From Bacteroidota bacterium (GTDB lineage: Bacteria > Bacteroidota > Bacteroidia > Bacteroidales > UBA12481), in NCBI GenBank assembly GCA_018669475.1, contig JABHCC010000189.1, positions 18,383-82,382 on the forward strand: a DNA stretch of 64,000 bases, written 5' to 3'. Both the position numbers and the translations under genes were made by a program. The notes under the pieces were generated by a model. That model was not told the origin of the DNA. It searched no databases and saw only the letters and a list, made by a program, of their open reading frames with translations. Shown here in pieces: positions 7,208 through 20,826 of this stretch (positions are counted from its first letter, which is position 1; every line of letters begins with the position of its first letter).

Positions 7208-8059
7208 TTACCTGTGGAGCTTCCGATACTCCGATGGGGTACAATCCATGACAGATCTGAAGTAATGATTGAAATTAGCAAGGGTATTATACCCGCTGTC
7301 AAAGCATATTTGGGTTACTGATTTTTCAGTTTCAATTAGCATCTTTGCTGCAAGGCCAATGCGAACTTTTTTAACGTATTCCATAAAGGTCAGATTGGTC
7401 TTCTTCTTAAAATACCTGCAAAATGAGCCGGGAGCCATGTTAATCAATTCTGCCACTTTTTTCAACTTAATTCCTTCTTCTATGTGGAGGAAAACATATT
7501 CATACACCCGGTTGATCTGTCCAAGGTCTTTTGTGAAATGGGCCGAATAATTCAATGTTTCTGACAGATAGTCGTAGTCTTCAACGTGAATTAGCTGATT
7601 AAATACATTTAAAAGATTAATGTAACTTTCTAATCCACTCATAGTCACCAGCTGTTCAAGATTTGCCTTTATCTTTTTTGCTTTCTTCCCTTTAAAGGCG
7701 ATTCCCTTATCAGCTTTTTTCAGAAGCTTTTCAACACCTTCCAATTCAGGGATATTGAAGAAATCTGAACGGATAATATTTTCATAAAAATGAATTGTAA
7801 TACATGTTGGTGGTATGTTTGTTTTGATTTCCAGAATTTCCCAGCAATGAGGTATCTCCGGCCCGAGAAGAACCAGATCATTATCCTCAAAACTGGAAAT
7901 GTCATTGCCGACAATTCTTCTTCCCGCTCCTGAAACAATGAAATTCAATTCGAAATTCTTGTGTGAGTGAATTATTGGCAAGCGTTCAGCCAGCTGAATC
8001 TTTCGTGCGATGAAGGAGTGCTTACTGGGGATGTTTATTTTCTCAAAAACATAATCCAT
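7208..8059 (-). CDS. AraC-family transcriptional regulator (cupin sensor plus HTH_18)
   Basis: The N-terminal cupin-like half has HSHKNFELNFIVSGAG. The C-terminal double HTH is ...SFCRYFKKKTNLTFMEYVKKVRIGLAAKML...GYNTLANFNHYFRSVMDCTPSEYR. It is divergent from the 8229 operon. Confidence 0.85.
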   Translation of the reverse strand: MDYVFEKINIPSKHSFIARKIQLAERLPIIHSHKNFELNFIVSGAGRRIVGNDISSFEDNDLVLLGPEIPHCWEILEIKTNIPPTCITIHFYENIIRSDFFNIPELEGVEKLLKKADKGIAFKGKKAKKIKANLEQLVTMSGLESYINLLNVFNQLIHVEDYDYLSETLNYSAHFTKDLGQINRVYEYVFLHIEEGIKLKKVAELINMAPGSFCRYFKKKTNLTFMEYVKKVRIGLAAKMLIETEKSVTQICFDSGYNTLANFNHYFRSVMDCTPSEYRKLHR

Positions 8060-8228: not shown

Positions 8229-9134
8229 ATGCAATTACCTTTAAAAGGAATCATACCACCGGTGATTACTCCCTTGAATAATTATAGTGATCTTGATGTC
8301 GAGGGGCTGCAAAACCTCATTGAGCACCTGATTGCTGGCAATGTGCATGGTCTGTTCCTTCTTGGCACTAATGGTGAAGCTCCTTCACTTAGTTACCAGC
8401 TTCGAAAAGATTTTATTAAATTGACCTGTGATTTAGTAAATCATAGAGTTCCGGTATTAGTTGGAATATCAGATACATCATTCGCTGGCTCACTGGATAT
8501 TTCGGAGTATTCCAAAGCTTGTGGTGCAGATGCAGTTGTTGTTGCTCCACCATATTATTTCCCTGTAGCCGAGGAAGAATTGATTAATTATTTTGAAGCA
8601 CTTACTACAAGGTTGAATTTGCCATTTCTACTGTATAACATGCCAAGCCATACAAAAGTCAACTTATCACTTGAAACAGTCAAAAGAGTGAAAGAAATGG
8701 GAGCAATCGGGATCAAAGATAGCTCAGGAGATATGTTCTTTTTGTATTCCTTAATTGCAGAATTTATTGGTTCGCCAGACTTCTCAATTTTCACCGGTAC
8801 TGAGCTGTTTTTACCCGAAACAATCAGGTATGGAGGCCATGGAGCAGTGGCCGGTGGGGCAAACATTTTCCCTGAGCTCTTTGTTAAACTATATGAAGCA
8901 TCCATAAGTAATGATTCTGAGACAATTGCACGGCTTCGAAACAAAGTGATAATGCTGTATGATACTATTTATAAAGTGGGGAAATTTACATCGCGAATAA
9001 CCAAGGGAATAAAATGTAGTTTATCTGTAATGAGTATTTGTAGTGATTATATGGCACCTCCATTCAGCAATTTTAACTCTGCGGAACGAAAAAAGATAGA
9101 AGAACACCTGAAAGAAATTGCTAAAGTGAACTAA
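8229..9134 (+). CDS. DHDPS / N-acetylneuraminate-lyase family class I aldolase
   Basis: Family motifs GTNGEAPSLS (GTTGE-like), LLYNMPSHT and the Schiff-base lysine context GIKDSSGD. About 300 aa. Confidence 0.8.
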   Translation: MQLPLKGIIPPVITPLNNYSDLDVEGLQNLIEHLIAGNVHGLFLLGTNGEAPSLSYQLRKDFIKLTCDLVNHRVPVLVGISDTSFAGSLDISEYSKACGADAVVVAPPYYFPVAEEELINYFEALTTRLNLPFLLYNMPSHTKVNLSLETVKRVKEMGAIGIKDSSGDMFFLYSLIAEFIGSPDFSIFTGTELFLPETIRYGGHGAVAGGANIFPELFVKLYEASISNDSETIARLRNKVIMLYDTIYKVGKFTSRITKGIKCSLSVMSICSDYMAPPFSNFNSAERKKIEEHLKEIAKVN

Positions 9135-9136
9135 TC

Positions 9137-10624
9137 ATGGAATTCCACCTGGGTACGATCGACACGAGTATTCTGATTATTTATGGAGTTGTACTTATAG
9201 GTATGGGTGTTTATTTTATTAGAAAAAACAAGACATCTGAACAGTTCATGGTCGCCGGACGAAGTATTCCTGCCTGGGCAGCCGGTCTGGCTGTTATGAG
9301 TGCCTATACAAGTAGTATTTCGTACATTGCTGTTCCCGGAAAGGCATTCGATTCGAATTGGCATCCACTGATCTTTGCTTTAACTGCTTTACCTGTTGCA
9401 TGGTTCGTTACGAAATATGTTGTTCCATATTACAGGAAGAAGAATATTATTTCAGTTTATGGATATCTTGAGGAAAAAATTGGTGGGTGGGCCAGAATTT
9501 ATGCCTCAATTTCATTCGTGCTTTTTATGATAGGACGAACAGCCGTTATCCTTTATCTCTCTTCACTTCTTCTAAGCTCTTTTGTGACCATTGATATTCG
9601 TATACTAATAGTAATGATTGGTATCATAACTATTATCTACACCTTAATGGGAGGCATGGAGGCTGTGATCTGGACTGATGTTGTACAATCTGTAATCATG
9701 ATCGGTGGTATTCTTTTCATTGGATTTATTCTAACTAAAGATGTTTTTGCAAAACCTGATTTCCTGATCCAAAATGCTTTTGATGCTAACAAGTTTAGTT
9801 TGGGGGAAAGCACTTTGTCGTTGAAGAGTAGAACTATCTGGGTTATGATTATATATGGTGTAACCGAAAATATCAGGAACCTGATAGCAGATCAAAATTA
9901 TACGCAGAAGTATTGTTCCGTACCCGATGAAAAACAAGCAAAAAAGTCTGTATGGATCGCAATGTTAATCTATTTACCTCTGACGGCTCTGTTTTTGTAT
10001 ATCGGAACTTCTTTGTTTGCTTTTTATTCAGGATCTGAAAATGCTCTCGGTGAAGCTATTACCAAAGGAGATCAGGTCTTCCCTCATTTTATTGCCACAC
10101 AACTTCCTGTGGGAATGAAAGGATTAATTATAGCTGCAATTCTTGCTGCTTCAATGAGTACCATTGATTCTGCTTTGAATTGTTCTGCCACCGTACTTTT
10201 CATTGATTATTATAAAAAGTATTTCAGATCCGAACCTTCTGAGAAAAGCAGTATTCTTTTCTTGCGACTCACAACTGTTGTCTGGGGTGTCGCTGGTATT
10301 GCTTTTGCACTATTACTCATAAATGCAAAAAGCGCACTTGATATTTGGTGGATAATTGCCGGTATTTTTGGTGGGGGAATCCTGGGCTTGTTCCTTCTGA
10401 GTATTTTCAATATTAAGATTAGACAATCTCAAGGTATTATTTCAGTTATTTTTAGCCTTATAATCATCATTTGGGCTTCGTTTGCCAGAGATTTACCAGA
10501 TAATCTTGCCTGGTTAGAATGCAGCATAGATCCCATTATTATTGGAGCTTTCAGCACACTTGGTTTAGTGCTTATGGCGCTGCTGTTTGTTATTGTGAAT
10601 CGAAGAGTATTAAAGTCTCCTTAA
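9137..10624 (+). CDS. Sodium:solute symporter (SSS family)
   Basis: About 13 TM segments. SSS N-terminal block FMVAGRSIPAWAAGLAVMSAYTSSISYIAVPG. Starts 3 nt after the lyase stop. Confidence 0.85.
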   Translation: MEFHLGTIDTSILIIYGVVLIGMGVYFIRKNKTSEQFMVAGRSIPAWAAGLAVMSAYTSSISYIAVPGKAFDSNWHPLIFALTALPVAWFVTKYVVPYYRKKNIISVYGYLEEKIGGWARIYASISFVLFMIGRTAVILYLSSLLLSSFVTIDIRILIVMIGIITIIYTLMGGMEAVIWTDVVQSVIMIGGILFIGFILTKDVFAKPDFLIQNAFDANKFSLGESTLSLKSRTIWVMIIYGVTENIRNLIADQNYTQKYCSVPDEKQAKKSVWIAMLIYLPLTALFLYIGTSLFAFYSGSENALGEAITKGDQVFPHFIATQLPVGMKGLIIAAILAASMSTIDSALNCSATVLFIDYYKKYFRSEPSEKSSILFLRLTTVVWGVAGIAFALLLINAKSALDIWWIIAGIFGGGILGLFLLSIFNIKIRQSQGIISVIFSLIIIIWASFARDLPDNLAWLECSIDPIIIGAFSTLGLVLMALLFVIVNRRVLKSP

Positions 10625-10684
10625 ACTGATTATGCACTAAGCTTAGTGGTATTCTTCGAAGTTTTGGAACATAAAAGTTTTCGT

Positions 10685-11776
10685 ATGAGAGTTTCAACCA
10701 TCTTTTTAGTACTACTGTTTTCCGGCCATGTGTTGGCCGATGAACCTGATACAACTTCGAATGCAATAGTTTTATCTGAATATATTTTCGATGCAAAAGA
10801 TGTTAGCTTCCCGAGTTGTCACGCCTCTACCATCGTAGAGACTAAAGAGGGTCTTTTGGTTGCCTGGTTTGCAGGAACTAAAGAGAAAGATCCGGATGTT
10901 GGTATCTGGCTCAGCCAATACTTACACGGAGAATGGTCCGTGCCTGTTGAAGTGGCTAACGGAGTACGAGGCAAAGCAAAGCAATTCCCAACCTGGAATC
11001 CGGTTCTTTTTAATACAGGTAAGGAGATAAAACTATTTTACAAAGTTGGTCCCTCTCCAAGAGAGTGGTGGGGTGAAGTGAAAACTTCTGTAGATAATGG
11101 GCTTACATGGTCACTTCCTCTCAGGCTTCCCAAAAATATTTTTGGCCCGATAAAAAATAAACCCCTTAAACTTGCTGATGGTAAATTGTTATGTCCTTCC
11201 AGTACGGAAAATGAGGGCTGGAGAGTTCACATGGAATTCTATACAGATATGGATAAAACATGGGAACGCACAGATGCATTGAATGACGGCAATAATATAT
11301 CGCTTATTCAGCCCGCAATTCTGACACATTCTGACAACGCGATCCAGATTTTATGCAGAAGCATGAATGGCGCAATTTTTTCTTCATGGTCAAACGACAA
11401 TGGATACACCTGGAGTGAATTTGAAACTATCGGATTACCGAATCCTAATTCCGGTTTCGATGCGGTGACATTAAAGGATGGAAGGCATATTTTGGTTTAC
11501 AATCATATTGCATGTAAAACCGGTGAGAAATGGGGTGACAGGAATATACTGAATATTGCCATTTCAGATGATGGCAAACTTTGGAAAGCGGCTGAACTGC
11601 TTGAAAATGATAAGGATGAAGATGCTGAGTATTCTTATCCTGCAGTTATTCAGACGAATGATGGTAATGTTCATATTACCTATACCTGGAACAGGACATT
11701 AATAAAACATGTTGTGCTTGATCCGCTAAAAATTAATACCAAAGATATAATTAATGGAATCTGGCCTTTGGAATAG
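10685..11776 (+). CDS. Secreted BNR/Asp-box six-bladed-propeller protein (sialidase fold, non-canonical)
   Basis: Signal peptide MRVSTIFLVLLFSG. Asp-boxes SVDNGLTW, SNDNGYTW and SDDGKLW. C-terminal YSYPAVIQTNDGNVHITY. No (F/Y)RIP motif is visible. The ORF track starts at a GTG at 10646. Confidence 0.75.
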   Translation: MRVSTIFLVLLFSGHVLADEPDTTSNAIVLSEYIFDAKDVSFPSCHASTIVETKEGLLVAWFAGTKEKDPDVGIWLSQYLHGEWSVPVEVANGVRGKAKQFPTWNPVLFNTGKEIKLFYKVGPSPREWWGEVKTSVDNGLTWSLPLRLPKNIFGPIKNKPLKLADGKLLCPSSTENEGWRVHMEFYTDMDKTWERTDALNDGNNISLIQPAILTHSDNAIQILCRSMNGAIFSSWSNDNGYTWSEFETIGLPNPNSGFDAVTLKDGRHILVYNHIACKTGEKWGDRNILNIAISDDGKLWKAAELLENDKDEDAEYSYPAVIQTNDGNVHITYTWNRTLIKHVVLDPLKINTKDIINGIWPLE

Positions 11777-11815: not shown

Positions 11816-13105
11816 ATGTCAAAAACAATCAGCTACTTATTTGTGGCCGTTGTGCTGGGTTTGGGATGGGCGATGCGAGGACATTTTGGCCATGAGTGGG
11901 GTGCCTCATGGGCCGGGGCAATGGGAGCTTTGGCTGTCGTGCTTGTAGCTAAAAGAAAAGACTGGGTTCGCAGAGCACCTGCATTGGCAGCTCTGGGAGC
12001 TCTTGGATGGGGTGTTGGAGGGATGATGAGTTATGGTATTGTAATTGGGTATTGCAGATCTGTTTCTTTTGTAAATTCACTCTATGGCTATGCTATGCTG
12101 GTCGTAATTGGAGGCTTGTATGGTTTTATTGGTGGGGGGCTGTTTGGTCTGGGGCTTGAATCAAGTGAAAAGAATAAACCTAACTGGCCAAACCTTATTG
12201 TTCAGATGTTTGCCGGGGGATTTCTGGTATGGGGACTTCTGATCTATCAGATGGAGTGGTTTATGACTCCTCCCCGTTCTGAACTTTGGGCAGGATGTAT
12301 GGGCGCTGCACTAGCACTGGCATGGTTTCTGAATCGAAATAGTTTCAAAAGAGCACTTCGGGTGGCCTTATTTTCAGCTTTAGGTGCCGGGTTTGGATTT
12401 GCATTTGGAAATTTTATTCAATTACTGGGAAACACTGCTGAAATTCAATACAATTGGTGGAACGTAATGGAATTCACTCTTGGCTTTTTTGGAGGTTTAG
12501 GAATGATTTATGCAGTTCTTACACGTGATTGGCCGGAGTCAGTAAAACCATCAAAAACCGGAAACTGGATTGCACTGATCTTTGTATTTCTATTTGTACC
12601 TGTCACCAATTATTTCAATGGATTCACCATGGATCATTTTATTGAACTTGCCGGGAAACTTGATATTGCCGAAGTAGATACCTATGCCAATAAGCAATTC
12701 ATTTTTGCGGGAATTGCAGTACTTGTTTTCGGTGTATTAGCTCTTATAGCCTGGAGGAAGTGCTTAGCCAATGATGAAAAATTACGCAATTATGGTATTT
12801 TGGTTCTGCTATTAATTACAGCTATCCACTACAATTTATTCTGCTACATTAAACTTGGCACTTTTGTTAGTCCGTTCACCTTTGTCCACTCTCACTCTTT
12901 ATACATTTTTATAATAATTCTGATTCTATTCACCTGGTTTTTCAGTCTAAGGGGGATACAAGAGTTTCCCGGCAAAATGGCCAAAGATGAAACCGGGATG
13001 CGATGGGCAATAATTTTGATTAGTCTTGTGATAATCATTATCTTAATCACATTTATCTCAGTTAATATCCATTATGAAATACCAGGCGCACACAACAGAT
13101 TCTAA
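11816..13105 (+). CDS. Polytopic inner-membrane protein of unknown family (about 11-12 TM)
   Basis: Long ORF with a Gly/aromatic-rich hydrophobic segment pattern (GWAMRGHFGHEWGASWAGAMGAL...). I recognised no transporter signature. It is tightly packed between two BNR genes. Confidence 0.55.
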   Translation: MSKTISYLFVAVVLGLGWAMRGHFGHEWGASWAGAMGALAVVLVAKRKDWVRRAPALAALGALGWGVGGMMSYGIVIGYCRSVSFVNSLYGYAMLVVIGGLYGFIGGGLFGLGLESSEKNKPNWPNLIVQMFAGGFLVWGLLIYQMEWFMTPPRSELWAGCMGAALALAWFLNRNSFKRALRVALFSALGAGFGFAFGNFIQLLGNTAEIQYNWWNVMEFTLGFFGGLGMIYAVLTRDWPESVKPSKTGNWIALIFVFLFVPVTNYFNGFTMDHFIELAGKLDIAEVDTYANKQFIFAGIAVLVFGVLALIAWRKCLANDEKLRNYGILVLLLITAIHYNLFCYIKLGTFVSPFTFVHSHSLYIFIIILILFTWFFSLRGIQEFPGKMAKDETGMRWAIILISLVIIIILITFISVNIHYEIPGAHNRF

Positions 13106-13118: not shown

Positions 13119-15557
13119 ATGAAAGTTTTCATCCTGATTCTTATTCTTGGATTCGGTTTATGTCAGAACACATTAGAAGCGCAAATATCATCTGACAATT
13201 CTCAGTCAGTGAGATTTACATCTCAGTACATTTTCCCCTTACAAGATTTGCATGTTCATAGTAGTTCCATAATTGAATTACCGAAGGGTGATCTGTTGTG
13301 CTGCTGGTTCGAGGGATCTGGAGAACGTACTGCTAATGATGTAGTAATTATGGGAGCGCGTTATAGCATGAGAGATCTTGAATGGGGTAAACCATTCCTA
13401 ATGGCAGATACTCCCGGTCATCCTGATTGTAACCCAACTTTGTTTATTGATGAGGATAATCGTTTACACCTTTTCTGGATTGTTGTACAAGCTAATCGAT
13501 GGGAAACTTCAGTATTGAAATCAAGAGTTTCATCCTCTTATCAAAATTCTGGTTCCCCTGAATGGGAATGGCAGGATGTAATTTTGTTAAAGCCCGGTGA
13601 AGAATTTGCAGAGACGATCATAGATCAATTTATGGAATCCGATAAGCTGGGTCTTGCCTGGGGAGAATATGCACCGCGTTATGAATCGATGATCTATGAA
13701 GCAGCTAAAGATCCCAAAAAGAGAGAAACGGGATGGATGACAAGAACTCATCCCATTCAGATCCCAAACGGAAGAATACTATTACCTCTGTACTCTGATG
13801 GGTTTAATCTCTCATTAATAGCAATTTCAGATGATATGGGAGAAACCTGGCGGCCAGGATTGCCTATTGTAGGTCGGGGTAATGTCCAGCCCAGTATTGT
13901 TAGAAAAACAGATGGTACTCTCCTTGCCTATATGCGGGATAATGGTGATGAGCCTGGCAGGATTATGAAAAGCATTTCAATGAATGATGGATACGAATGG
14001 ACCAGGGCAACAGATACAGACTTAGCTAATCCGGGAACGAGCGTTGAAGCTTTAGTCCTTGAAAATGGGAATTGGATAATAGTTTATAATGATATTGAAA
14101 ATGGACGGTATAGTTTAGCGATTAGCCTTTCTGATGATGAAGGAGAAACATGGAAGTGGACCCGGCATCTGGAGCAAAAAGCAGAGGGTGAGGGCTCATT
14201 TTCTTATCCATCTGTTATTCAGACCAGGGATGGATTAATTCACATTTCTTACTCATTTCATTTGCCAGAGCATAAGACTATCAAGCATGTAGCCTTTTCT
14301 GCAGAATGGACAAAAGAGCAAGCTTCCACTATCAAAGCTAATGTTGCGGTAAGAAAGCTTACTCCACCTCTGGAGATGGACTATACTCTGGGAGGATATG
14401 GTGCACGCATGAACAAACCGGCAATGGGAATACATGATGATATCTGGGCAAAGGCTCTGGTATTAGATGATGGTGACAAAAAGTATGCGATTGTCACACT
14501 TGACATCCTGGGATTACCACCAAATGTCAAACCGCAGGTAATTGAGCAACTTAATCAGGAGGGATGGACCGAGGAAAACATTATGTTCCTGCCCAGTCAT
14601 TCTCATGCCTCTCTTGAGATGTTTGCCTTGAATGATAAGAATATCTTCGGGATAGCCCCAATTGGGATCTTTCAACCACAGCTACTCGATTATCTGGTAA
14701 ATTCTTTAGCTGATTTAATCAAATCGGCAGATCAGAACTTAAAGCCTGTTAGGATTGGCAGTCTTAGCAAACAAATTGATGGATTAAACCGCAACCGAAG
14801 AGGAGAATCCTTTATCGATAATTTCTTAACTGTGACACGGATTGACCATATCAATGGAAAACCAATGACGGTTCTGGTTAACTGGACAGGACATCCCACA
14901 ATTATGGACGAACATGATATGCATGTATCTGGTGGTTGGCCTGGATATTTGCAACGTGAATTAGAAAGCCATATTGCTGAGGGTGTTGTTGCGATGTACT
15001 ATAACGGACCTGTAGGAGACCAATCAGTGATTGCTGGAAATGCAGGAAGCCACTATGAAAAAGCAGAAAAATATGGCCGTACTATGGCTGTCAATGCCTT
15101 GAATGTATACAAGGATATCAAAACTGAAGAAAAGATCAAATTCAATTACAATTATAAAATCATTCAATTGCCCAATAGAGAGGCTCATCCAGATTTCATG
15201 GAAACAGGAGGTAAAGAATATGGACTTGATAAAGAAAAAATAATGATACTCCTTGATCAGGTTTTCCCGGAACAGACCTCAATTGGAGCCTGCAGATTGG
15301 GTGACCTTCTGATCGTCGGTGCACCAGGTGAATTGATTGCTGAATTGGGCTTGAATATTAAAGATAAACTCAAAGCAAGAGGCGTTAAATATCCGGCAAT
15401 CGGGGGCCTGGCCAATCAATGGATTAGTTACATTCTAAGCGAAAACGCATATAACAGGGGTGGATATGAAACTAGTGCTAGTTTCTACGGCAAAGATTTG
15501 GGGAAAGTAATAGTTAAAAGCATGATGGAAACAGCATTGCCATTAATTGAAGAGTAA
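13119..15557 (+). CDS. Fusion: secreted BNR/Asp-box propeller (N-terminal) plus neutral/alkaline-ceramidase-like amidohydrolase domain (C-terminal)
   Basis: Signal peptide MKVFILILILGFGLC. Asp-boxes SDDMGETW, SMNDGYEW and SDDEGETW. From about nt 14340: GGYGARMNKPAMGIHDDIWAKALVLDDG...TLDILGLP and LPSHSHAS, a ceramidase N-domain-like pattern. The ATG at 13119 is preferred over 13074. Confidence 0.7.
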   Translation: MKVFILILILGFGLCQNTLEAQISSDNSQSVRFTSQYIFPLQDLHVHSSSIIELPKGDLLCCWFEGSGERTANDVVIMGARYSMRDLEWGKPFLMADTPGHPDCNPTLFIDEDNRLHLFWIVVQANRWETSVLKSRVSSSYQNSGSPEWEWQDVILLKPGEEFAETIIDQFMESDKLGLAWGEYAPRYESMIYEAAKDPKKRETGWMTRTHPIQIPNGRILLPLYSDGFNLSLIAISDDMGETWRPGLPIVGRGNVQPSIVRKTDGTLLAYMRDNGDEPGRIMKSISMNDGYEWTRATDTDLANPGTSVEALVLENGNWIIVYNDIENGRYSLAISLSDDEGETWKWTRHLEQKAEGEGSFSYPSVIQTRDGLIHISYSFHLPEHKTIKHVAFSAEWTKEQASTIKANVAVRKLTPPLEMDYTLGGYGARMNKPAMGIHDDIWAKALVLDDGDKKYAIVTLDILGLPPNVKPQVIEQLNQEGWTEENIMFLPSHSHASLEMFALNDKNIFGIAPIGIFQPQLLDYLVNSLADLIKSADQNLKPVRIGSLSKQIDGLNRNRRGESFIDNFLTVTRIDHINGKPMTVLVNWTGHPTIMDEHDMHVSGGWPGYLQRELESHIAEGVVAMYYNGPVGDQSVIAGNAGSHYEKAEKYGRTMAVNALNVYKDIKTEEKIKFNYNYKIIQLPNREAHPDFMETGGKEYGLDKEKIMILLDQVFPEQTSIGACRLGDLLIVGAPGELIAELGLNIKDKLKARGVKYPAIGGLANQWISYILSENAYNRGGYETSASFYGKDLGKVIVKSMMETALPLIEE

Positions 15558-15576
15558 TGTCAACAGAAATATAATT

Positions 15577-18237
15577 GTGAAAATCAAATCCATACTTATA
15601 AGTATTGCAATCTCTTTTCTTCTGTCCCATGCTTATGAGGCCATTGGAGAAGAATTAAATCTGATGCAGTCAGATGAAAATTTCGCTACATATAATGCCG
15701 AGGATTTAAATGACGGAGAGTTTTTGCACGATTTTTTACTACTTGGACCTTTCCCCAATCCCCTGTCTGATGGAATAAGCGAATATTTTCATACGGATGA
15801 AGAATGTTTAGGATTTGATAAGGACTATTTAATCTCCGTGGGTGGTGAAAGTGGAGTGAAGCCCGGAGTGAGGCAGAGTGTGTCATTTGAAGATGGGGAA
15901 CCAATAACATGGCAGGCCCACCATTCCGATTTTGATAGAGTTGATTTGAAGAAAATATTTACACCTAATGAAGGTGTGATTTGCTATGCTGCTATCTGGA
16001 TTGAAAGCCAGAAAAATCAGGAAAAACTCTTTGGGATTGGTTCAAATGATGGGCTTAAAGTATGGCATAATGGTAAATTTCTTTTAAAAGTACATAAGCC
16101 CAGAACGGTTAATGTTGATGATGAATACCTGAACCTCAAGCTAAAAAAAGGAAGGAATCTTTTACTTATTAAAATCGAACAGGGTTTAGGAGGCTGGGGA
16201 TTCATTCTGAGGCCGGTTGATGTGGAAACTGCCTGGAAGCAAGTTAATGAAAACCTTGATATTGCTTTAAACAGTGAATTTATTGTTGAGGATGGATTTA
16301 TAAAAGGGACAATTGGAGATAGGAATATCGTTGGTATGCTCAGAGGGCTTCCCATGGCAGAAATCGAATTCCGGTCAATAAACTCAGACCACTACAAGAA
16401 AATTGAAGCGCCATTAGGCACTTCACTGAAACTCCCAATTAAGGAATTTCCGGGAGGTGAATATGCCATTACAATTTCATTCTCAACGCAGGATGGGGTC
16501 AAACAGTCTTACGCATATATGAACACCTCAGGAGATGTTGTTGAACAAACAAAAGAGCTAATATACAAGGCGATACCATCAATGCCATCCTCATTAATGG
16601 CTGATTATTACACTAATTTTATCGAAACTACCCACTGGTTGGATAAAACGAATAAACTATGGCAACACCCATATGGATATAGAAGATATCTTGATGGTTT
16701 AAAACATGTGCATACCGAGGCATTAAAGTTAAGTATATCCGCTAATCCATTTAGTGGTATTTTCCCTGCTCCAGGCCTAATTAATACTATTGGTGGAGAA
16801 ACAAAGATTACTTCTGATTGGATGATTTTTGATGCAGCTAAATCTGACGATTTTATCAAAGCTGAAATAGAGAGAGTATGGAAGCAGAAGTTTAATAGAG
16901 TACCCCGATACACTGATGATCCTGATGGCAAAAATACAATTCGCTTGCTTATAGCGACTACAGAAAGCTCAAACACCAATGCAGGAAGCTATATCCTGCA
17001 AATTGAAAGCAACAGAATAACAATCACCTCAGGCTTAAGGCAAGGTCTGTATTATGGTGTAAATTCACTAATACAGGCCTTAGAGCAAAATGACGTAATT
17101 CCACTGGGAGAAATTATTGACCAACCCGCTTTTACAGTCCGCAGTACCCTGCAAACAACAACGAAATTAACACCTGAATTCATTCAATATATTGAACAGA
17201 TTGCCAGAATGAAATATAATGTAGTATATATCTCTTCAGGCAACTATTTAGATCTGGATGATAAGCAAAAGCTCAAAGATATCATAGACGTATTCGACTT
17301 TTGTAAATCGAGATTTACCGAGCCCGTACCTTATTTTGAAACTTTCGGGGCAGGAACAATTACAAGAGTAATGGATCCCTGCTTAGATGAGGGAATTTTT
17401 CATGAAAAGGAATTATGGCTGGTGCCTGACAATGGCATAATTGAATTAGATGTGCCACGTATTCAGGATTGCCCCAATACTACTATTCATATTTTCACTG
17501 CAAATGGAAGAGAGATAAAAAAAGATTCAGAATATAAAATACTGTCAACAGAGAAACCAAAACTTCAAATTCTGAATAATGACTTATTTAACTCTGAATT
17601 GCTATTAAGTTATGATGCGGTTGACTTCTCACTTTATCCACATCCTGCAAGTTGTCCTTCAGATCCTGCCGGATGGAAGATTCAAGAAACTGTGATTTCA
17701 AATGTCATCACAAAATTGCACCCAAACAGTATTCATATAAGCCAGGATGAAGCAGGGCTTATTAACCAATGCAGCCGGTGCCTTGCCCGAAACCTGAGTA
17801 ACAAGCAAATAATGATCGACCAGATAAACAGGGTCCACAATATTATCAGAAAATATGACCCGAATATTGATATTTGTATTTGGGGTGATCTCTTCAACGA
17901 CTTTCAAAATGCCCCTATGCTTGGTGTCGAAGGCGCTGTTGAAGGATTACCTAAAGATATAATCATTCATGACTGGAATTATGTAGCAGTTTACCACAGT
18001 GATAAGATGCAAACCATTAATCAAATGAATTTTTACTTTAACCGTGGCTATAGGGTGGGTGGTGTTGCCTGGTTTGAACCAGCTAATATTCTGGATATAC
18101 TTCTAGCCGGAGAGAATAAGGGGAATCAGTTTATTGGTATTATGCACACTGCCTGGGCAGGCTTTGATCAAAGTTTATATACTACTGCTGAAGCAAACTG
18201 GACTGGAACAACGATTTTAGGTAAATTAAGATTTTAA
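15577..18237 (+). CDS. Secreted multidomain protein: N-terminal jelly-roll-like domain, GH20b-like domain and a TIM-barrel candidate (GH20/DUF4838-like glycosidase)
   Basis: A GTG at 15577 gives the leader (M)KIKSILISIAISFLLSHA. The ORF track uses a TTG at 15547. The block SYILQIESNRITITSGLRQGLYYGVNSLIQAL...IIDQPAFTVRS resembles the GH20 N-terminal domain. IHISQDEAG resembles the GH20 HxGGDE catalytic pair. Confidence 0.45.
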   Translation: MKIKSILISIAISFLLSHAYEAIGEELNLMQSDENFATYNAEDLNDGEFLHDFLLLGPFPNPLSDGISEYFHTDEECLGFDKDYLISVGGESGVKPGVRQSVSFEDGEPITWQAHHSDFDRVDLKKIFTPNEGVICYAAIWIESQKNQEKLFGIGSNDGLKVWHNGKFLLKVHKPRTVNVDDEYLNLKLKKGRNLLLIKIEQGLGGWGFILRPVDVETAWKQVNENLDIALNSEFIVEDGFIKGTIGDRNIVGMLRGLPMAEIEFRSINSDHYKKIEAPLGTSLKLPIKEFPGGEYAITISFSTQDGVKQSYAYMNTSGDVVEQTKELIYKAIPSMPSSLMADYYTNFIETTHWLDKTNKLWQHPYGYRRYLDGLKHVHTEALKLSISANPFSGIFPAPGLINTIGGETKITSDWMIFDAAKSDDFIKAEIERVWKQKFNRVPRYTDDPDGKNTIRLLIATTESSNTNAGSYILQIESNRITITSGLRQGLYYGVNSLIQALEQNDVIPLGEIIDQPAFTVRSTLQTTTKLTPEFIQYIEQIARMKYNVVYISSGNYLDLDDKQKLKDIIDVFDFCKSRFTEPVPYFETFGAGTITRVMDPCLDEGIFHEKELWLVPDNGIIELDVPRIQDCPNTTIHIFTANGREIKKDSEYKILSTEKPKLQILNNDLFNSELLLSYDAVDFSLYPHPASCPSDPAGWKIQETVISNVITKLHPNSIHISQDEAGLINQCSRCLARNLSNKQIMIDQINRVHNIIRKYDPNIDICIWGDLFNDFQNAPMLGVEGAVEGLPKDIIIHDWNYVAVYHSDKMQTINQMNFYFNRGYRVGGVAWFEPANILDILLAGENKGNQFIGIMHTAWAGFDQSLYTTAEANWTGTTILGKLRF

Positions 18238-18585: not shown

Positions 18586-20826
18586 ATGATAAAAACAACT
18601 ATAACAGCATTGAGTCAGAGCAATAAACTCAGGCTTATTCTTCTTGGACTAATTATTTCTTTTGCTGCTTGTACAGATTCTGATTCTCAGATGAATACCC
18701 GGGTATATGATGACCTGCCGTTTATCCAGGATTATGCAGAGCAATTTGAATTAATAACAACACAGGCAGTGCCGGAACTTCTCGAGGTAAGATGTGACAG
18801 GAATAATAATATTAAAATTCTCTCTTCAGAAGGTTTGTTGCAGCCCTGGGAAAAGAACCTTGTAGCTGATCAGCTTTATAGTCCGATTCGGGATATGAGA
18901 ATAATTTCAATCGCTTCATTTAAGAACCAGTTTGTTTATTTAACCGACAAAGCAATTTTGAGCAATGCTTGGGCCGGAAAGTTTTATGTTAAACATAATA
19001 TTGAGAACTGTTCCCATTTTGTTTTAGGAGATGATTTCTCAGTTCTGGTAGCTGCCAGGGAGAAATTGGCCTTCTTTACTGATTCAGAATTGGTATGGGA
19101 AGAATCACTTGATGATTTTGAGCCTGTCGAACTTCTGTATAATTCAAGTCAGGGAGTTTTTGTAATTCTTTCAAAAAGTGCAATTTATACATTTACCATA
19201 GCAGATAAGCAATTGATTATGAGGTCAGATGCTGGAAATTTCACATCAATGGCCTTTGTAGCAGAAAATAGCCTATTAATGCTTGGAACAGAAGATGGGA
19301 TTTTGTCTTTGGATTCAGAATCGTTTAAAGAAATTTCACCTCTGAATACTAAACTTCCAGATACTAAAATATCATGCATTACTAAAATAAATGGAAAGTT
19401 ATGGTTCGGATCATCCAAAGGAGCTTTTTCGCAAAGAGATGATAATAAATACGATTATTATGCATCAAAGCGCTGGCTGGTCGATGATCAGGTTATTGAT
19501 ATCAGCGCGGGACCAGATAATAGTGTATTAATTCTTACAGAAACAGGATTAAGCCAAATCGTTTTTACAAAGATAACCCTTGCTGATAAAGCTGAATATT
19601 TCCAAAAAGTGCAAAGGCTTCGGCATGTTCGCTATGGTTTTAGTTCAGCAACGAGCCTTAAAGTGCCAGGAGATCTGTCATCTGCAGTTTTGCATGATAC
19701 AGATAATGATGGCCTTTGGACATCTATGTACCTGGCTGGTGAGCTGTTCCGTTATGGAGTGACCAAGTCGAATGACGCTCTGCAAAATGCGTACGAAGCT
19801 TTTGAAGCCATGGAACGTCTTACTGAAATAAGTGGAATTCAAGGATTCCCGGCAAGAACATATGAGATTGATGGTTATCAGTCAAGTGATACTGATCCAA
19901 ATATGTCTGAGGATGAGAAAATCTGGAGGCTTACTGAAGATAAGCGCTGGAGGTGGAAGTCAACAACAAGCAGTGATGAATCGTGCGGTCACTTTTTTGT
20001 TTATGCCCTTTTTGCTGAAATTGTGCCTGATCAGGAGTGGAGAGACCGTGCAATTCATCAAATAAAAATCGAGATGGATCACATTATTGAACACGACTGG
20101 TACCTTGTAACATGGAACGGAAACAGGACAGAATGGGGAAGATGGAATCCTGAATATGTTAACAGTTTTCCAATTACAGTTGGTGATCGACGCTTGAATT
20201 CAACACTTATTCTTGCTTTTCTGCAAACAGCATATCATTTTACCGGAGAGAAGATCTACAAGGAGAAAGCGTTTGAACTTATGAAAGACCATGGCTACGA
20301 CGAAAACACCATCCGACCTGCTACCGTTATCGGAGAAGTTGAGGGAGAGATTCTGAGTGATACCTGGAATCACTCGGATGATGAAATGTACTTTTTAACA
20401 ATTCCTGCACTATTAAAATATGCTTTTAACGACGAATTAAAAGAAAAATTTTTTGAATCGGCAAAAAGCCATTGGGAAATTGAACGATCTGAAAAGAATC
20501 CTCTCTGGAATTTTTTGTATCTCATGTCAGGTGGTGGAGATTATGACCTGGAAGAATCAGTCTGGTGGCTCAAAGAATTCCCAATGGATCTCATATCATG
20601 GAATGTTGAGAATAGTCACAGGCAGGATTTAACAAGAGTTGAGCAAAACTTCAGAAGACAAGAATATACCGAAGTGTTGCCAAGAGATGAACGACCCATG
20701 CACTTGCATAACAATGCATTCCGAAACAATGGAGGAAATGGCGGTAGAGAAGAGTATCCTCCTTATATTTTTCTACTGCCTTATTGGGCAGGAAGATATG
20801 CAGGTGTGATTAGTCCGGCAGAATAA
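18586..20826 (+). CDS. Large lipoprotein of unknown function (N-terminal beta-propeller-like repeats, C-terminal helical toroid-like region)
   Basis: Lipobox LIISFAAC. The N-terminal half has Reg_prop-like repeats (INGKLWFGSSKGAFS). The C-terminal half is helix-rich (DNDGLWTSMYLAGELFRYG...ESCGHFFVYALFAEI...). I could not assign a confident family. Confidence 0.4.
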   Translation: MIKTTITALSQSNKLRLILLGLIISFAACTDSDSQMNTRVYDDLPFIQDYAEQFELITTQAVPELLEVRCDRNNNIKILSSEGLLQPWEKNLVADQLYSPIRDMRIISIASFKNQFVYLTDKAILSNAWAGKFYVKHNIENCSHFVLGDDFSVLVAAREKLAFFTDSELVWEESLDDFEPVELLYNSSQGVFVILSKSAIYTFTIADKQLIMRSDAGNFTSMAFVAENSLLMLGTEDGILSLDSESFKEISPLNTKLPDTKISCITKINGKLWFGSSKGAFSQRDDNKYDYYASKRWLVDDQVIDISAGPDNSVLILTETGLSQIVFTKITLADKAEYFQKVQRLRHVRYGFSSATSLKVPGDLSSAVLHDTDNDGLWTSMYLAGELFRYGVTKSNDALQNAYEAFEAMERLTEISGIQGFPARTYEIDGYQSSDTDPNMSEDEKIWRLTEDKRWRWKSTTSSDESCGHFFVYALFAEIVPDQEWRDRAIHQIKIEMDHIIEHDWYLVTWNGNRTEWGRWNPEYVNSFPITVGDRRLNSTLILAFLQTAYHFTGEKIYKEKAFELMKDHGYDENTIRPATVIGEVEGEILSDTWNHSDDEMYFLTIPALLKYAFNDELKEKFFESAKSHWEIERSEKNPLWNFLYLMSGGGDYDLEESVWWLKEFPMDLISWNVENSHRQDLTRVEQNFRRQEYTEVLPRDERPMHLHNNAFRNNGGNGGREEYPPYIFLLPYWAGRYAGVISPAE

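What the first reader, a model, noticed from the sequence alone, without database searches (positions are those of the whole stretch)
8229..11776. Nan-like core (aldolase, SSS, BNR) under an AraC regulator, but none of the three BNR domains shows a canonical sialidase RIP motif
The window holds the parts of the Bacteroides-type sialate route, scattered across operons:
- class I aldolase at 8229
- transporter at 9137
- AGE epimerase at 39291
- ROK kinase at 57853

I found no (F/Y)RIP motif in any of the three BNR domains (10685, 13119, 20908). Two of them instead share F-x-S-x-H-(A/S)-S-(T/S)-I and a C-terminal (Y/F)SYP(A/S)VIQT..G..HI(T/S)Y. These propellers may therefore target a different acidic ketose (KDN, Kdo, Dha, or legionaminic/pseudaminic acids) or act as lyases or trans-glycosidases.
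Basis: partly seen in the sequence, partly recalled or inferred. Interest (0 to 1): 0.55.

Follow-up and report, generated by a model that had tools for sequence, protein, structure and literature searches.

The report
Kdo-type sugar-acid scavenging gene cassette
These genes look like a sialic-acid harvesting set, but the "sialidase" belongs to a widespread family whose one tested member releases the bacterial and plant sugar acid Kdo, so the cassette probably harvests Kdo and offers candidate genes for a Kdo transporter and the still gene-less Kdo aldolase.

Summary
None of the three BNR domains has an (F/Y)RIP motif, and the coordinates are right.

BNR1 (10685-11776) and BNR2 (13119-~14300) belong to a very large, RIP-less clade with a sialidase fold (PF13088/COG4692). 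Its near-invariant residues are H46, E67, D71, N105, K120, K159, Q209, R225, R286 and Y318. By alignment to GH33 enzymes, Arg2, Arg3 and the Tyr nucleophile are kept. The RIP arginine is lost (His46 or Ser48 in its place). The Glu partner of the Tyr is Gln209 or Ala/Leu207.

The closest functionally described relative I found is the C-terminal domain of a Bacteroides GH78-BNR_2 fusion. It is 41% identical and keeps every signature residue. It sits next to GH140, which is the BT1012/BT1013 arrangement. The literature reports the BT1013 C-terminus as a validated Kdo hydrolase.

The transporter is closest to the sialic-acid symporter SiaT. Its carboxylate site is conserved; its distal pocket is changed. 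The aldolase is a class I lysine aldolase but is neither NanA nor DapA.

BNR_2, the SSS transporter and the DHDPS-family aldolase recur together across phyla. Best reading: a Kdo-type ulosonic-acid scavenging cassette, not a Neu5Ac route. BNR3 is a different lineage. AGE and ROK are not shown to belong. No enzyme has been assayed.

The parts
7208..8059 (-). AraC-family transcription regulator, divergently transcribed from the cassette
   Evidence: Pfam HTH_18, E 1e-22. The same divergent position is seen in L001, L004-L007, L088-L091 and 8 genome loci.
8229..9134 (+). Class I (Schiff-base lysine) pyruvate aldolase of the DHDPS family; candidate ulosonate (Kdo) aldolase. Not NanA and not DapA.
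   Evidence: Pfam DHDPS, E 1e-54. NCBIfam: dapA 175 bits (cut-off 206); nanA 98 and 120 bits (cut-offs 382 and 281). Closest PDB entry is 4XKY (B. thetaiotaomicron 'DHDPS'), E 5e-93; next are the E. coli YagE entries, one deposited as a probable 2-keto-3-deoxy-galactonate aldolase, E 2e-39. K163, Y136, Y110 and T47 align with DapA K161, Y133, Y107 and T44, but DapA Arg138 is His141 here (the DapA sequence was recalled from memory and only its residue numbering was checked).
9137..10624 (+). Na+/solute symporter most similar to the sialic-acid transporter SiaT; candidate transporter for the released sugar acid
   Evidence: Best PDB hit is 5NV9 (SiaT), E 5e-72, 246 bits; the next SSS scores 134 bits. 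SiaT carboxylate binders S60, T63 and R135 align with S59, S62 and R134. Distal contacts are changed: Q82->A81, F78->P77, G81->F80, F243->G241, Q250->N248.
10685..11776 (+). BNR1: exported six-bladed sialidase-fold protein of the RIP-less 'H-A-S ... Q-P ... R ... R ... S-Y-P' family; predicted exo-Kdo (ulosonic acid) hydrolase
   Evidence: PF13088, E 1e-82. AF2 model pLDDT 93. Foldseek: GH33 sialidases at TM about 0.73, 16% identity. 41% identity and 263 bits to the BT1013-like C-terminal domain, with all signature residues shared. N-terminal signal peptide MRVSTIFLVLLFSGHVLA.
10808..10834 (+). FPSCHASTI: first inner strand of blade 1, where GH33 enzymes carry (F/Y)RIP. His46 is the conserved residue.
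   Evidence: H46 in 46/47. Strand 44-52 in the model. The global hhalign places NEU2 R21 opposite S48; a manual alignment places it opposite H46. There is no Arg either way.
11630..11656 (+). YSYPAVIQT: first strand of blade 6. Tyr318 is the equivalent of the GH33 nucleophile.
   Evidence: NanB Y653 aligns with Y318. Y318 in 46/47; position 316 is Y or F.
11816..13105 (+). Polytopic membrane protein (at least 9 predicted TM segments) of unknown family, directly after BNR1 and overlapping the BNR2 ORF
   Evidence: Hydropathy scan. No Pfam, NCBIfam or PDB match. Homologues sit beside BNR1-type genes in L019 and L020.
13119..15557 (+). BNR2: divergent member of the same RIP-less family (about 13119-14300) fused to a neutral-ceramidase-like Zn-amidase domain (about 14330-15557). 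Probable lipoprotein.
   Evidence: Pfam BNR_2 E 1e-47 plus Ceramidase_alk E 6e-25. A1 profile 181 bits. Keeps the His, E67, D71, N-P, Q-P, R225, R286 and S-Y-P equivalents. C-terminal domain against neutral ceramidases 2ZWS and 4WGK, E 1e-9, with SHSH aligned to THTH.
15547..18237 (+). Distant GH20-like protein (hexosaminidase-like), same operon
   Evidence: Pfam Glyco_hydro_20b E 2.5e-11. PDB GH20 catalytic domains 9FYL and 9FYM, E 3e-7.
18586..20826 (+). 746-aa protein of unknown function; a recurrent neighbour of the cassette in relatives
   Evidence: Only sub-threshold Pfam hits. Homologues in L008-L011 and L019.
20908..23043 (+). BNR3: a different BNR_2 lineage (about 20908-22060) fused to DUF6807 (about 22105-23020). 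No His46 equivalent, Glu at the Q209 position, Arg2 and Tyr kept, Arg3 not evident.
   Evidence: Pfam DUF6807 E 6e-75 and BNR_2 E 2e-19. A1 profile only 58 bits. Signature table; alignment.
23101..29275 (-). Convergent Metallophos phosphoesterase, SusD-like and SusC-like genes (PUL context)
   Evidence: Pfam. Metallophos and SusC/D also sit next to the cassette in L005, L006 and L019.

Best explanation
Region 8229-11776 is a three-gene scavenging cassette for a 2-keto-3-deoxy sugar acid (ulosonic acid), most likely Kdo. It is controlled by the divergent AraC-type regulator. It is not a Neu5Ac pathway.

Proposed steps:
1. BNR1 is exported to the periplasm. There it acts as an exo-glycosidase that releases terminal Kdo-type residues. 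It has a sialidase-like six-bladed propeller. Two arginines (R225, R286) hold the sugar carboxylate, Tyr318 is the presumed nucleophile, and an acid in the blade-1 loop (E67 or D71) is the presumed proton donor. The third (RIP) arginine is replaced by His46 or Ser48. The Glu that activates the Tyr in GH33 is replaced by Gln209.
2. The SiaT-like Na+ symporter imports the free acid. Its carboxylate site is kept and its distal pocket is re-shaped.
3. The DHDPS-family class I aldolase splits the acid into pyruvate plus an aldose (D-arabinose if the substrate is Kdo).

BNR2 is a diverged paralogue fused to a ceramidase-like amidase. BNR3 is another kind of propeller.

What is shown: fold, family membership, residue conservation, and gene linkage across phyla. 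What is inferred: substrate identity, the catalytic role of each residue, and the direction and products of the aldolase step.
For: (1) Fold. The AF2 model has pLDDT 93. Its best functionally annotated PDB neighbours are GH33 sialidases.

(2) Family. 5359 representative clusters match at E<1e-3. H46, E67, N105, K120, K159, Q209, R225, R286 and Y318 are each present in at least 43 of 47 representatives, and D71 in 39 of 47. In the model, H46, E67, D71, N105, K120, Q209, R225, R286 and Y318 sit at the starts of A strands or in B-C loops, and K159 sits in the loop before blade 3's A strand. That is the canonical active-site face of a sialidase propeller (my reading of the secondary-structure map).

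(3) Catalytic mapping. NEU2 R237 aligns with R225 and R304 with R286. NanB R557 aligns with R225 and Y653 with Y318.

(4) Closest described relative. The C-terminal domain of the B. finegoldii GH78-BNR_2 protein lies next to GH140. It is 41% identical (263 bits) to BNR1 and scores 340+70 bits against the family profile. It keeps every signature residue and has no R[IVL]P anywhere in its 1288 aa. The GH78 + BNR_2 architecture recurs in at least 120 Bacteroides protein clusters. PMC13501991, citing Ndeh 2017, states that BT1013 has an N-terminal GH78 rhamnosidase and a C-terminal, experimentally validated KDO hydrolase acting on RG-II chain C.

(5) Transporter. SiaT is by far the best PDB hit, and the carboxylate triad is conserved. 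E. coli takes up Kdo through its sialic-acid transporter NanT (PMC10619137).

(6) Aldolase. The Schiff-base Lys and the catalytic Tyr are kept. The NanA and DapA models are failed, and DapA Arg138 is His.

(7) Linkage. Of 47 genome loci with at least 5 kb on both sides, 22 carry the orthologous aldolase and/or SSS within 5 kb on the same strand. These include Planctomycetota and Verrucomicrobiota.

(8) Independent pairings in Proteobacteria. Family members pair with unrelated DHDPS-family genes. The Klebsiella plasmid has an FGGY kinase, a weakly FucI-like protein, a DHDPS-family gene, BNR_2 and an MFS transporter. R. etli and E. coli GR6 have a DUF1537 kinase, PdxA, Fe-ADH, a DHDPS-family gene and BNR_2.
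Against: - No enzyme in this clade has been assayed. At 41% identity to the BT1013-type domain, Kdo specificity does not transfer safely. Dha and KDN are close analogues.
- I could not retrieve BT1013 itself. Equating the B. finegoldii protein with it rests on architecture and the GH140 neighbour.
- No RG-II genes and no obvious D-arabinose catabolic genes lie beside the cassette.
- B. thetaiotaomicron has a 51%-identical homologue of the aldolase (4XKY), yet it is reported to excrete free Kdo during growth on RG-II.
- About half of the family loci have neither the aldolase nor the SSS nearby.
- The placement of His46 opposite Arg1 and of Gln209 opposite the Glu is uncertain by two residues between methods. 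No coordinate superposition was possible.
- Loss of the Glu leaves the activation of the Tyr unexplained.
Confidence: 0.6

Rival explanations
1. The cassette has the same architecture and logic, but the sugar is another ulosonic acid. [quoted passage not shown]
For: The family clearly spans more than one specificity. The R. etli and E. coli GR6 clusters couple BNR_2 and a DHDPS-family gene to Fe-ADH, a four-carbon acid-sugar kinase and PdxA. That fits a C7 diacid giving pyruvate plus a C4 acid (my inference). The Klebsiella cluster instead has a pentose-type FGGY kinase and a weakly FucI-like protein. The changed SiaT distal pocket says only 'not Neu5Ac'. Ceramidase-like fusions would also suit KDN- or sialo-glycosphingolipids.
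Against: The closest described relative is a Kdo hydrolase: 41% identity, against 28% to the R. etli type. The known Dha hydrolase, GH143 (BT1020), is a five-bladed propeller that keeps the Tyr-Glu pair (PMC6811678). It matches the family profile only weakly and locally (5MQR, E 2e-8). The window has no DUF1537 or PdxA genes.
Confidence: 0.25
2. BNR1, together with the adjacent polytopic membrane protein, trims Kdo from the cell's own LPS. This would resemble the two-component Kdo hydrolase (KdoH1/KdoH2, also called KdhAB) of Francisella and Helicobacter, rather than nutrient scavenging.
For: A sialidase-like protein is followed by a multi-TM protein. Some Bacteroidota LPS carries a single Kdo and no Kdo hydrolase has been identified for them (PMC3342949).
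Against: BNR1 is co-operonic with a symporter and a catabolic aldolase, under a sugar-type AraC regulator, and next to SusC/D and glycosidases. The membrane protein accompanies BNR1 in only a few loci. BNR1 has a cleavable-looking signal peptide, not a membrane anchor. Sequence similarity to KdoH1/KdoH2 could not be tested.
Confidence: 0.07
3. It is an ordinary Neu5Ac (Nan) cluster with a divergent GH33 sialidase, completed by the distant AGE epimerase and ROK kinase.
For: The gene trio mirrors NanH-SiaT-NanA. SiaT is the best structural relative of the transporter. AGE and ROK genes exist in the window. In L013 an AGE gene lies directly upstream of SSS-BNR1.
Against: - There is no RIP arginine and no Glu partner.
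- The NanA models are failed by a wide margin.
- The SiaT residues that hold the glycerol tail and the N-acetyl group are replaced.
- The family is most abundant in Planctomycetota, Verrucomicrobiota and soil or aquatic Bacteroidota, and on plasmids of plant-associated Proteobacteria.
- AGE and ROK sit in other operons.
Confidence: 0.03
4. The propeller is not a hydrolase. It could be a lyase or trans-glycosidase, an anomerase, or a binding protein.
For: The loss of the Glu and of one Arg would be compatible with altered chemistry.
Against: The homologous BT1013 domain is reported to be a hydrolase. A conserved Tyr, two Arg and a loop acid on the active-site face point to glycosidase chemistry.
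Confidence: 0.05

Closest known systems
C-terminal Kdo hydrolase domain of Bacteroides thetaiotaomicron BT1013 (GH78-BNR_2 fusion of the RG-II PUL; Ndeh et al. 2017, as summarised in PMC13501991)
   Same: Same sequence family: 41% identity over the whole propeller to the B. finegoldii orthologue-by-synteny. All signature residues are shared and there is no RIP motif.
   Different: BNR1 is a stand-alone exported protein. It is not fused to GH78 and is not in an RG-II PUL. It is instead co-operonic with a transporter and an aldolase, which B. thetaiotaomicron does not appear to use for Kdo since it excretes Kdo. Linkage specificity is unknown.
GH33 exo-sialidases (e.g. NanB 2VW0, NEU2 1SNT, M. 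viridifaciens 1EUS)
   Same: Six-bladed propeller, Asp-boxes, Arg2, Arg3 and the Tyr nucleophile position. TM about 0.73.
   Different: About 16% identity. No (F/Y)RIP arginine. Gln (or Ala/Leu) where GH33 has the Glu that activates the Tyr. The profile match is partial (E 1e-16 at best, blades 3-6 only).
Nan clusters: NanH/NanA/SiaT type, and the Bacteroides NanL-NanE(AGE)-RokA type
   Same: Same logic: periplasmic exo-glycosidase, then a sugar-acid symporter, then a class I pyruvate aldolase, under a dedicated regulator.
   Different: The aldolase is not a NanA equivalog. The transporter's distal pocket differs. No epimerase or kinase lies in the operon. The regulator is AraC-type.
GH143 Dha hydrolase (BT1020 N-terminal domain, 5MQR)
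   Same: A sialidase-related propeller that acts on an ulosonic acid of RG-II.
   Different: GH143 is five-bladed and retains the Tyr-Glu pair (PMC6811678). Only a weak local profile match was found (E 2e-8).
Two-component Kdo hydrolase KdoH1/KdoH2 (also called KdhAB) of Francisella, Helicobacter and Legionella
   Same: A sialidase-like catalytic protein next to a polytopic membrane protein. The substrate is Kdo.
   Different: That enzyme is an inner-membrane LPS-remodelling activity with no linked transporter or aldolase. Sequence relatedness could not be tested here.

Membership tests
GH33 canonical exo-sialidase | Six-bladed beta-propeller with Asp-box repeats | tested here: met
   AF2 model pLDDT 93 with six four-stranded blades. 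Foldseek hits to GH33 structures. SVDNGLTW and SNDNGYTW Asp-boxes.
GH33 canonical exo-sialidase | (F/Y)RIP motif supplying the first arginine of the triad | tested here: not met
   No RIP. His46 or Ser48 lies at the aligned position. H46 is present in 46/47 family representatives.
GH33 canonical exo-sialidase | Second and third arginines of the triad | tested here: met
   R225 aligns with NEU2 R237 and NanB R557. R286 aligns with NEU2 R304. Present in 47/47 and 45/47.
GH33 canonical exo-sialidase | Tyr nucleophile with its Glu partner | tested here: not met
   The Tyr is present: Y318 aligns with NanB Y653. At the Glu position the family has Gln209 (45/47) by HMMER, or Ala/Leu207 by hhalign.
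GH33 canonical exo-sialidase | Asp acid/base in the blade-1 loop | tested here: inconclusive
   Conserved E67 (44/47) and D71 (39/47) lie in the equivalent B-C loop. NEU2 D46 falls in an alignment gap. No coordinates were available for a superposition.
BT1013-type Kdo hydrolase family (RIP-less BNR_2 / COG4692) | Full-length homology to the characterised domain, with shared signature residues | tested here: met
   41% identity and 263 bits to the B. finegoldii GH78-BNR_2 C-terminal domain. H46, E67, D71, N105, P106, K120, K157, K159, S173, E175, Q209, P210, R225, R286, Y316, S317, Y318 and P319 are all shared. That this protein equals BT1013 is inferred from its architecture and GH140 neighbour.
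BT1013-type Kdo hydrolase family (RIP-less BNR_2 / COG4692) | Release of Kdo from a glycoside | not testable with these tools
   Needs an enzyme assay.
N-acetylneuraminate lyase (NanA/NanL) | Score above the curated NanA model cut-offs | tested here: not met
   NF003164 120 bits (cut-off 281). TIGR00683 98 bits (cut-off 382).
4-hydroxy-tetrahydrodipicolinate synthase (DapA) | Score above the DapA model cut-off, and Arg138 for aspartate-semialdehyde binding | tested here: not met
   TIGR00674 175 bits (cut-off 206). Arg138 is His141; 4XKY has the same His.
DHDPS/NAL superfamily class I aldolase | Schiff-base Lys and catalytic Tyr/Thr | tested here: met
   K163, Y136, Y110 and T47 align with DapA K161, Y133, Y107 and T44. 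Pfam DHDPS E 1e-54.
SiaT-type sialic acid Na+ symporter | Carboxylate-binding Ser/Thr/Arg (S60, T63, R135) | tested here: met
   S59, S62 and R134.
SiaT-type sialic acid Na+ symporter | Residues holding the glycerol tail and N-acetyl group (Q82, F78, G81, F243) | tested here: not met
   A81, P77, F80 and G241.
Bacteroides-type Nan route (NanL + AGE-type NanE + RokA) | Epimerase and kinase functionally linked to the lyase | tested here: inconclusive
   AGE (39291-40568, -) heads a GH92/ceramidase-like operon. Its best match is the cellobiose 2-epimerase model (155 bits, cut-off 800). ROK lies in an HldE-like/GmhA-like operon. However, in L013 the AGE, SSS2, SSS and BNR1 genes are contiguous.
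GH143 Dha hydrolase | Homology to the BT1020 N-terminal propeller, with a Tyr-Glu pair | tested here: not met
   Only a local hit to 5MQR, E 2e-8, over profile positions 235-337. The family has Gln, not Glu. GH143 is described as five-bladed.

The most novel reading that the evidence does not exclude
The cassette is the catabolic end of a system that dismantles Kdo-lipid A / LPS inner core, or other Kdo-rich bacterial glycolipids and capsules, as food. If so, it would give the first gene assignments for Kdo aldolase (EC 4.1.2.23, an activity known since 1966 with no annotated gene) and for a dedicated Kdo transporter.

Circumstantial support in the window and in related loci:
- A Kdo-hydrolase-type propeller fused to a ceramidase-like fatty-acyl amidase, and fused to YdjC deacylases in relatives.
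- A polytopic membrane partner next to BNR1.
- A GH20-like gene and Metallophos, PHP and GDPD phosphoesterases.
- Several esterases.
- Paralogues of the heptose-pathway genes GmhA and HldE-kinase/HAD sitting among catabolic genes.
Probability: 0.2. Interest if true: 0.8.

Novelty: new variant of a known kind. Interest (0 to 1): 0.55.

Why it matters
Kdo occurs in nearly all Gram-negative LPS, in many capsules, in plant RG-II and in algal scales. Even so, the ten full-text searches run here, over the held PMC and bioRxiv library, returned no description of a Kdo catabolic gene set. Recent papers state that no Kdo aldolase gene is annotated and that pathways for free Kdo in gut microbes are unconfirmed.

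This cassette recurs in Bacteroidota, and its parts pair up across several other phyla. It gives three concrete, clonable candidates: hydrolase, transporter and aldolase.

It also matters for annotation. Thousands of genes labelled 'exo-alpha-sialidase' or 'predicted neuraminidase' probably do not act on sialic acid. The same applies to the 'dihydrodipicolinate synthase' label on PDB entry 4XKY.

Tried and rejected
Tools and sources that failed:
- Alignment A1 was too diverse for the search for related loci. I used the narrower A2.
- Ndeh 2017, Zhao & Raetz 2010 and Stead 2010 are not held. BT1013 function is therefore cited second-hand from PMC13501991, and similarity to KdoH1/KdoH2 was not tested.
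- Literature searches for PF13088, COG4692 and 4XKY gave almost nothing. The exception was the E. coli BEN2908 paper, which led to the proteobacterial clusters.
- Looking up the B. finegoldii protein's cluster and its homologues did not return a sequence named as B. thetaiotaomicron.

Ideas considered and set aside:
- DapA or a lysine-biosynthesis role for the aldolase: fails the model cut-off and lacks Arg138.
- NanA: fails both models.
- A GPI-anchor or glycosyl-inositol-phosphoceramide degradation locus. Ceramidase-like, GDPD, GH92 and HGSNAT neighbours suggested it, but it does not explain the SiaT-like/aldolase/propeller triad.
- LRLP at BNR1 residues 146-149 as a displaced RIP motif: wrong blade and not conserved.

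The sigma-70 promoter and terminator scan was uninformative for this Bacteroidota operon.

Full report
**What is there.** The window is from a Bacteroidota genome of about 40% GC. Its nearest named relatives are Maribellus, Draconibacterium and Mariniphaga. On the + strand, a tightly packed gene row runs from 8229 to at least 18237, and probably to 23043:
- DHDPS-family protein (8229-9134).
- SSS transporter (9137-10624), 2 bp downstream.
- BNR_2 protein (10685-11776), 60 bp further on.
- A 429-aa polytopic membrane protein (11816-13105).
- A BNR_2 + ceramidase-like fusion (13119-15557, overlapping the previous ORF).
- A distant GH20-like protein (15547-18237).
- A 746-aa unknown protein (18586-20826).
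- A BNR_2 + DUF6807 fusion (20908-23043).

An AraC-family gene (7208-8059) is divergent. A Metallophos gene and a SusD/SusC pair are convergent.

**The observation.** No RIP tripeptide occurs in any of the three propellers. The LRLP at BNR1 residues 146-149 lies in blade 2, and its Arg is present in only 20 of 47 relatives. BNR1 and BNR2 share H-(A/S)-S-(T/S)-I on the first strand of blade 1 and (Y/F)SYP(A/S)VIQT..G..HI(T/S)Y on blade 6. BNR3 has neither motif.

**The family.** BNR1 belongs to a very large family:
- All 8000 scored candidates in the 90%-identity protein database matched.
- 5359 clusters at 50% identity matched at E<1e-3, and 672 matched below 1e-30. Many carry other fused domains.
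- In 47 representatives that are 38-64% identical to BNR1, these residues are invariant or nearly so: H46, A47, E67, D71, N105, P106, K120, K157/K159, S173, E175, Q209, P210, R225, R286, S317, Y318 and P319.

The AF2 model is confident (pLDDT 93, pTM 0.89) and shows six four-stranded blades. Foldseek's best PDB matches are an uncharacterised Dyadobacter protein (5HX0), then GH33 sialidases at TM about 0.73 and about 16% identity. H46, E67, D71, N105, K120, Q209, R225, R286 and Y318 all lie at the start of an inner (A) strand or in a B-C loop. K159 lies in the loop before blade 3's A strand. This is the face that carries the sialidase active site. That last point is my reading of the secondary-structure map, not a coordinate measurement.

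**Catalytic constellation.**
- Profile-to-sequence alignment with NanB puts R557 on R225, Y653 on Y318 and E541 on Q209. R619 falls two residues from R286.
- Profile alignment with human NEU2 puts R237 on R225 and R304 on R286. It puts E218 on position 207 (Ala/Leu). I recalled the NEU2 sequence from memory and then verified it against 1SNT.
- So neither method finds a Glu at that site.
- At the N-terminus, the global alignment puts R21 opposite S48. A manual alignment puts it opposite H46. Neither gives an Arg.
- D46 falls in the loop that holds E67 and D71.

In summary, Arg2, Arg3 and the Tyr are retained. Arg1 and the Glu are not. The acid/base residue is plausible but unassigned.

BNR2 keeps the same set of residues, with Phe at 316. 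That singles out Y318 as the key Tyr. BNR3 differs: it has no His, it has Glu at the Q209 position, it keeps Arg2 and the Tyr, and Arg3 is not evident.

**Closest functionally described relative.** A tblastn search of plasmid-labelled records found a Bacteroides finegoldii protein of 1288 aa. It has GH78 domains followed by a BNR_2 domain, and it lies immediately after a GH140 gene among GH28, GH78 and DUF3826 genes.
- Its C-terminal domain is 41% identical (263 bits) to BNR1 and scores 340+70 bits against the family profile.
- It carries every signature residue.
- The whole protein has no R[IVL]P.
- The GH78 + BNR_2 architecture is shared by at least 120 protein clusters from Bacteroides.

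A 2026 review, citing Ndeh et al. 2017, lists BT1012 as the GH140 apiosidase and BT1013 as an N-terminal GH78 rhamnosidase. It lists the BT1013 C-terminus as an experimentally validated KDO hydrolase acting on RG-II chain C, and as not assigned to a CAZy family. My own recollection that the original paper labelled it GH33 is unverified.

I could not fetch BT1013 itself. Equating the B. finegoldii protein with it is therefore an inference from architecture and synteny. On that basis, the RIP-less family is the Kdo-hydrolase type of sialidase-fold enzyme.

**Partners.**
- The transporter's best solved relative is SiaT, the Proteus mirabilis sialic-acid symporter (E 5e-72, 246 bits). The next SSS scores 134 bits.
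- I used the contacts listed in PMC5931594 and the alignment. The carboxylate binders S60, T63 and R135 are conserved as S59, S62 and R134. Q82 (glycerol tail) is Ala. The N-acetyl pocket residues F78, G81 and F243 are Pro, Phe and Gly.
- The aldolase keeps the Schiff-base Lys and the Tyr/Thr residues. It fails the NanA and DapA models and has His at DapA Arg138. So does its closest solved relative, 4XKY, deposited as B. thetaiotaomicron DHDPS. After 4XKY, the nearest PDB entries are the E. coli YagE structures, one of which is deposited as a probable 2-keto-3-deoxy-galactonate aldolase.

**Linkage.**
- AraC(-)/DHDPS/SSS/BNR_2 is conserved in six other Bacteroidota contigs.
- In a scan of species-representative genomes, 22 of 47 loci with at least 5 kb on both sides have the orthologous aldolase and/or SSS within 5 kb on the same strand. 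These include Planctomycetota and Verrucomicrobiota. The aldolase also neighbours BNR_2 in an Alphaproteobacteria MAG.
- In Proteobacteria, family members sit beside unrelated DHDPS-family genes (about 25% identical to the window's). A Klebsiella plasmid has an FGGY kinase, a protein with a sub-threshold L-fucose-isomerase C-domain hit, a DHDPS-family gene, BNR_2, an MFS transporter and LacI.
- R. etli and E. coli BEN2908 GR6 have a four-carbon acid-sugar kinase (DUF1537), PdxA, Fe-ADH, a DHDPS-family gene and BNR_2. In E. coli there is also a NanQ/YhcH-like gene.

This repeated, independently assembled pairing of the propeller with a pyruvate aldolase argues that its product is a 2-keto-3-deoxy acid. 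The pentose-type module fits Kdo (pyruvate + D-arabinose). The C4-acid module fits Dha (pyruvate + a threuronate that is reduced to D-threonate). Both assignments are my inference.

**Mechanism proposed.** BNR1 is exported to the periplasm (signal peptide) and removes terminal Kdo-type residues from imported glycans. The SiaT-like symporter takes up the free acid. The aldolase cleaves it. The AraC protein senses the sugar or a derivative. E. coli is known to import Kdo through its sialic-acid transporter, and Kdo aldolase activity has no annotated gene. A 2026 preprint reports that B. thetaiotaomicron excretes Kdo and that Kdo pathways in other gut microbes are unconfirmed. Searches for 'Kdo catabolism', 'Kdo utilization' and 'heptosidase' returned no paper using those phrases; all 44 hits came from the other three search terms.

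**What argues against it.**
- 41% identity does not fix specificity.
- There are no RG-II or D-arabinose genes beside the cassette.
- B. thetaiotaomicron has a 51%-identical aldolase homologue, yet it excretes Kdo.
- Half of the family loci lack these partners.
- Residue equivalences are uncertain by two positions.
- Without the Glu, the activation of Tyr318 is unexplained.

**AGE and ROK.** The AGE-family gene heads a minus-strand operon with GH92 and a ceramidase-like gene. The ROK gene follows a PfkB-HAD fusion whose best model is heptose-7-phosphate kinase (118 bits, below cut-off), and it precedes a GmhA-like SIS protein (174 bits, below cut-off). They are not shown to be part of a sialate route. 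In one close relative (L013), the SIS, PfkB-HAD, AGE, SSS2, SSS and BNR1 genes are contiguous, so some functional tie cannot be excluded.

**Wider reading.** Several features are what a system for dismantling Kdo-lipid A or LPS inner core would need:
- BNR2 is fused to a neutral-ceramidase-like amidase.
- Relatives carry BNR_2-YdjC fusions.
- A polytopic membrane partner follows BNR1.
- There is a GH20-like gene, along with phosphoesterases and esterases.
- Heptose-pathway paralogues sit among catabolic genes.

This is circumstantial. I give it about 0.2.

**Verdict.**
- Observation: confirmed.
- Interpretation: partly supported. The 'different acidic ketose' idea holds, with Kdo the leading candidate. 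The 'scattered Bacteroides sialate route' and 'lyase/trans-glycosidase' ideas do not.
- The hydrolase is a new member of a known, sparsely studied family.
- Its fixed association with a SiaT-like transporter and a non-NanA aldolase is, as far as the searchable literature shows, an undescribed variant of the Nan scheme, and it is directly testable.

Noticed in passing
window 11816-13105 (+): A 429-aa protein with at least 9 predicted transmembrane segments and no family match. It is wedged between BNR1 and BNR2, and homologues occupy the same position in L019 and L020. This recalls the membrane subunit of the Francisella/Helicobacter two-component Kdo hydrolase.
   Followed up: partly
window 13119-15557 (+); 35392-36795 (-); 60922-62478 (+): Three neutral-ceramidase-like genes lie in one 64-kb window. 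One is fused to a Kdo-hydrolase-type propeller. In the fusion the SHSH motif aligns with the THTH motif of the Pseudomonas ceramidase. Relatives have BNR_2-YdjC fusions instead (L005, L088).
   Followed up: partly
window 55835-59434 (+): A PfkB-HAD fusion (best model: HldE heptose-7-P kinase domain), a ROK kinase and a GmhA-like SIS protein (best model: phosphoheptose isomerase). All score below the equivalog cut-offs. They sit among catabolic genes, so they may form a heptose catabolic branch. In L013 the PfkB-HAD and SIS genes are contiguous with AGE-SSS2-SSS-BNR1.
   Followed up: partly
window 20908-23043 (+): BNR_2 fused to DUF6807 ('PmoA-like', function unknown). This propeller keeps a Glu at the GH33 Glu position and the Tyr. 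It lacks the RIP Arg, and no Arg3 is evident. It is a separate lineage from BNR1 and BNR2.
   Followed up: partly
PDB 4XKY, compared with window 8229-9134: The structure deposited as B. thetaiotaomicron dihydrodipicolinate synthase is 51% identical to the window aldolase. It is 67% identical to the aldolase of the L087 PUL. It has His at the DapA Arg138 position. It is probably not a DapA.
   Followed up: partly
L087 (Bacteroides sp. 51) 357-18000: A PUL with SusC/D, a BNR1-type propeller fused to a nucleoside-hydrolase domain, a BT_1020-like propeller, two ribokinase-like PfkB genes, a ribose-type transporter, two DHDPS-family genes, an SSS and an AXE1 esterase. It resembles a 'rus'-type ribose PUL. 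It could target ribose-Kdo capsular polymers, though that is speculation.
   Followed up: partly
L096 (R. etli plasmid) 1022-12676; E. coli BEN2908 GR6 (PMC12928451): BNR_2 and a DHDPS-family gene are clustered with Fe-ADH, a DUF1537 four-carbon acid-sugar kinase and PdxA/PdxA2. In E. coli there is also a NanQ-like gene. This fits a pathway from a C7 ulosonic diacid (Dha) to pyruvate plus D-threonate and then DHAP, which is my inference.
   Followed up: partly
L094 (Klebsiella pneumoniae IncFIB plasmid) 4756-12657: A mobile-element-flanked cluster on a conjugative plasmid. It holds an FGGY kinase, a 548-aa protein with a weak L-fucose-isomerase C-domain hit, a DHDPS-family gene, a RIP-less BNR_2, an MFS transporter and LacI.
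   Followed up: partly
L022 2514-11041 (and L016, L021, L023): In Rikenellaceae and Bacteroidales MAGs, the SSS-BNR1 pair lacks the aldolase. In L022, where the neighbours were annotated, it sits back-to-back with an L-arabinose operon (AraA, AraD-like, NUDIX-AraR and an SSS); the other three loci were seen only to carry the same upstream SSS2-type gene.
   Followed up: partly
window 1347-4478 (+): A single 1043-aa ORF combines a sulfatase domain with a GH29 alpha-L-fucosidase domain, next to a stand-alone GH29 (24-1325).
   Followed up: no
window 50028-52323 (+): A DegT-type aminotransferase (closest models PseC and ArnB) and an IolG-like Gfo/Idh/MocA dehydrogenase sit inside a catabolic gene row. 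They are followed by a PhoPQ-related protein and an MFS transporter.
   Followed up: no
window 15547-18237 (+): An 896-aa protein with only a GH20 'domain 2' Pfam hit and a remote match (E 3e-7) to GH20 catalytic domains. It may be a divergent hexosaminidase-like enzyme of the same operon.
   Followed up: partly
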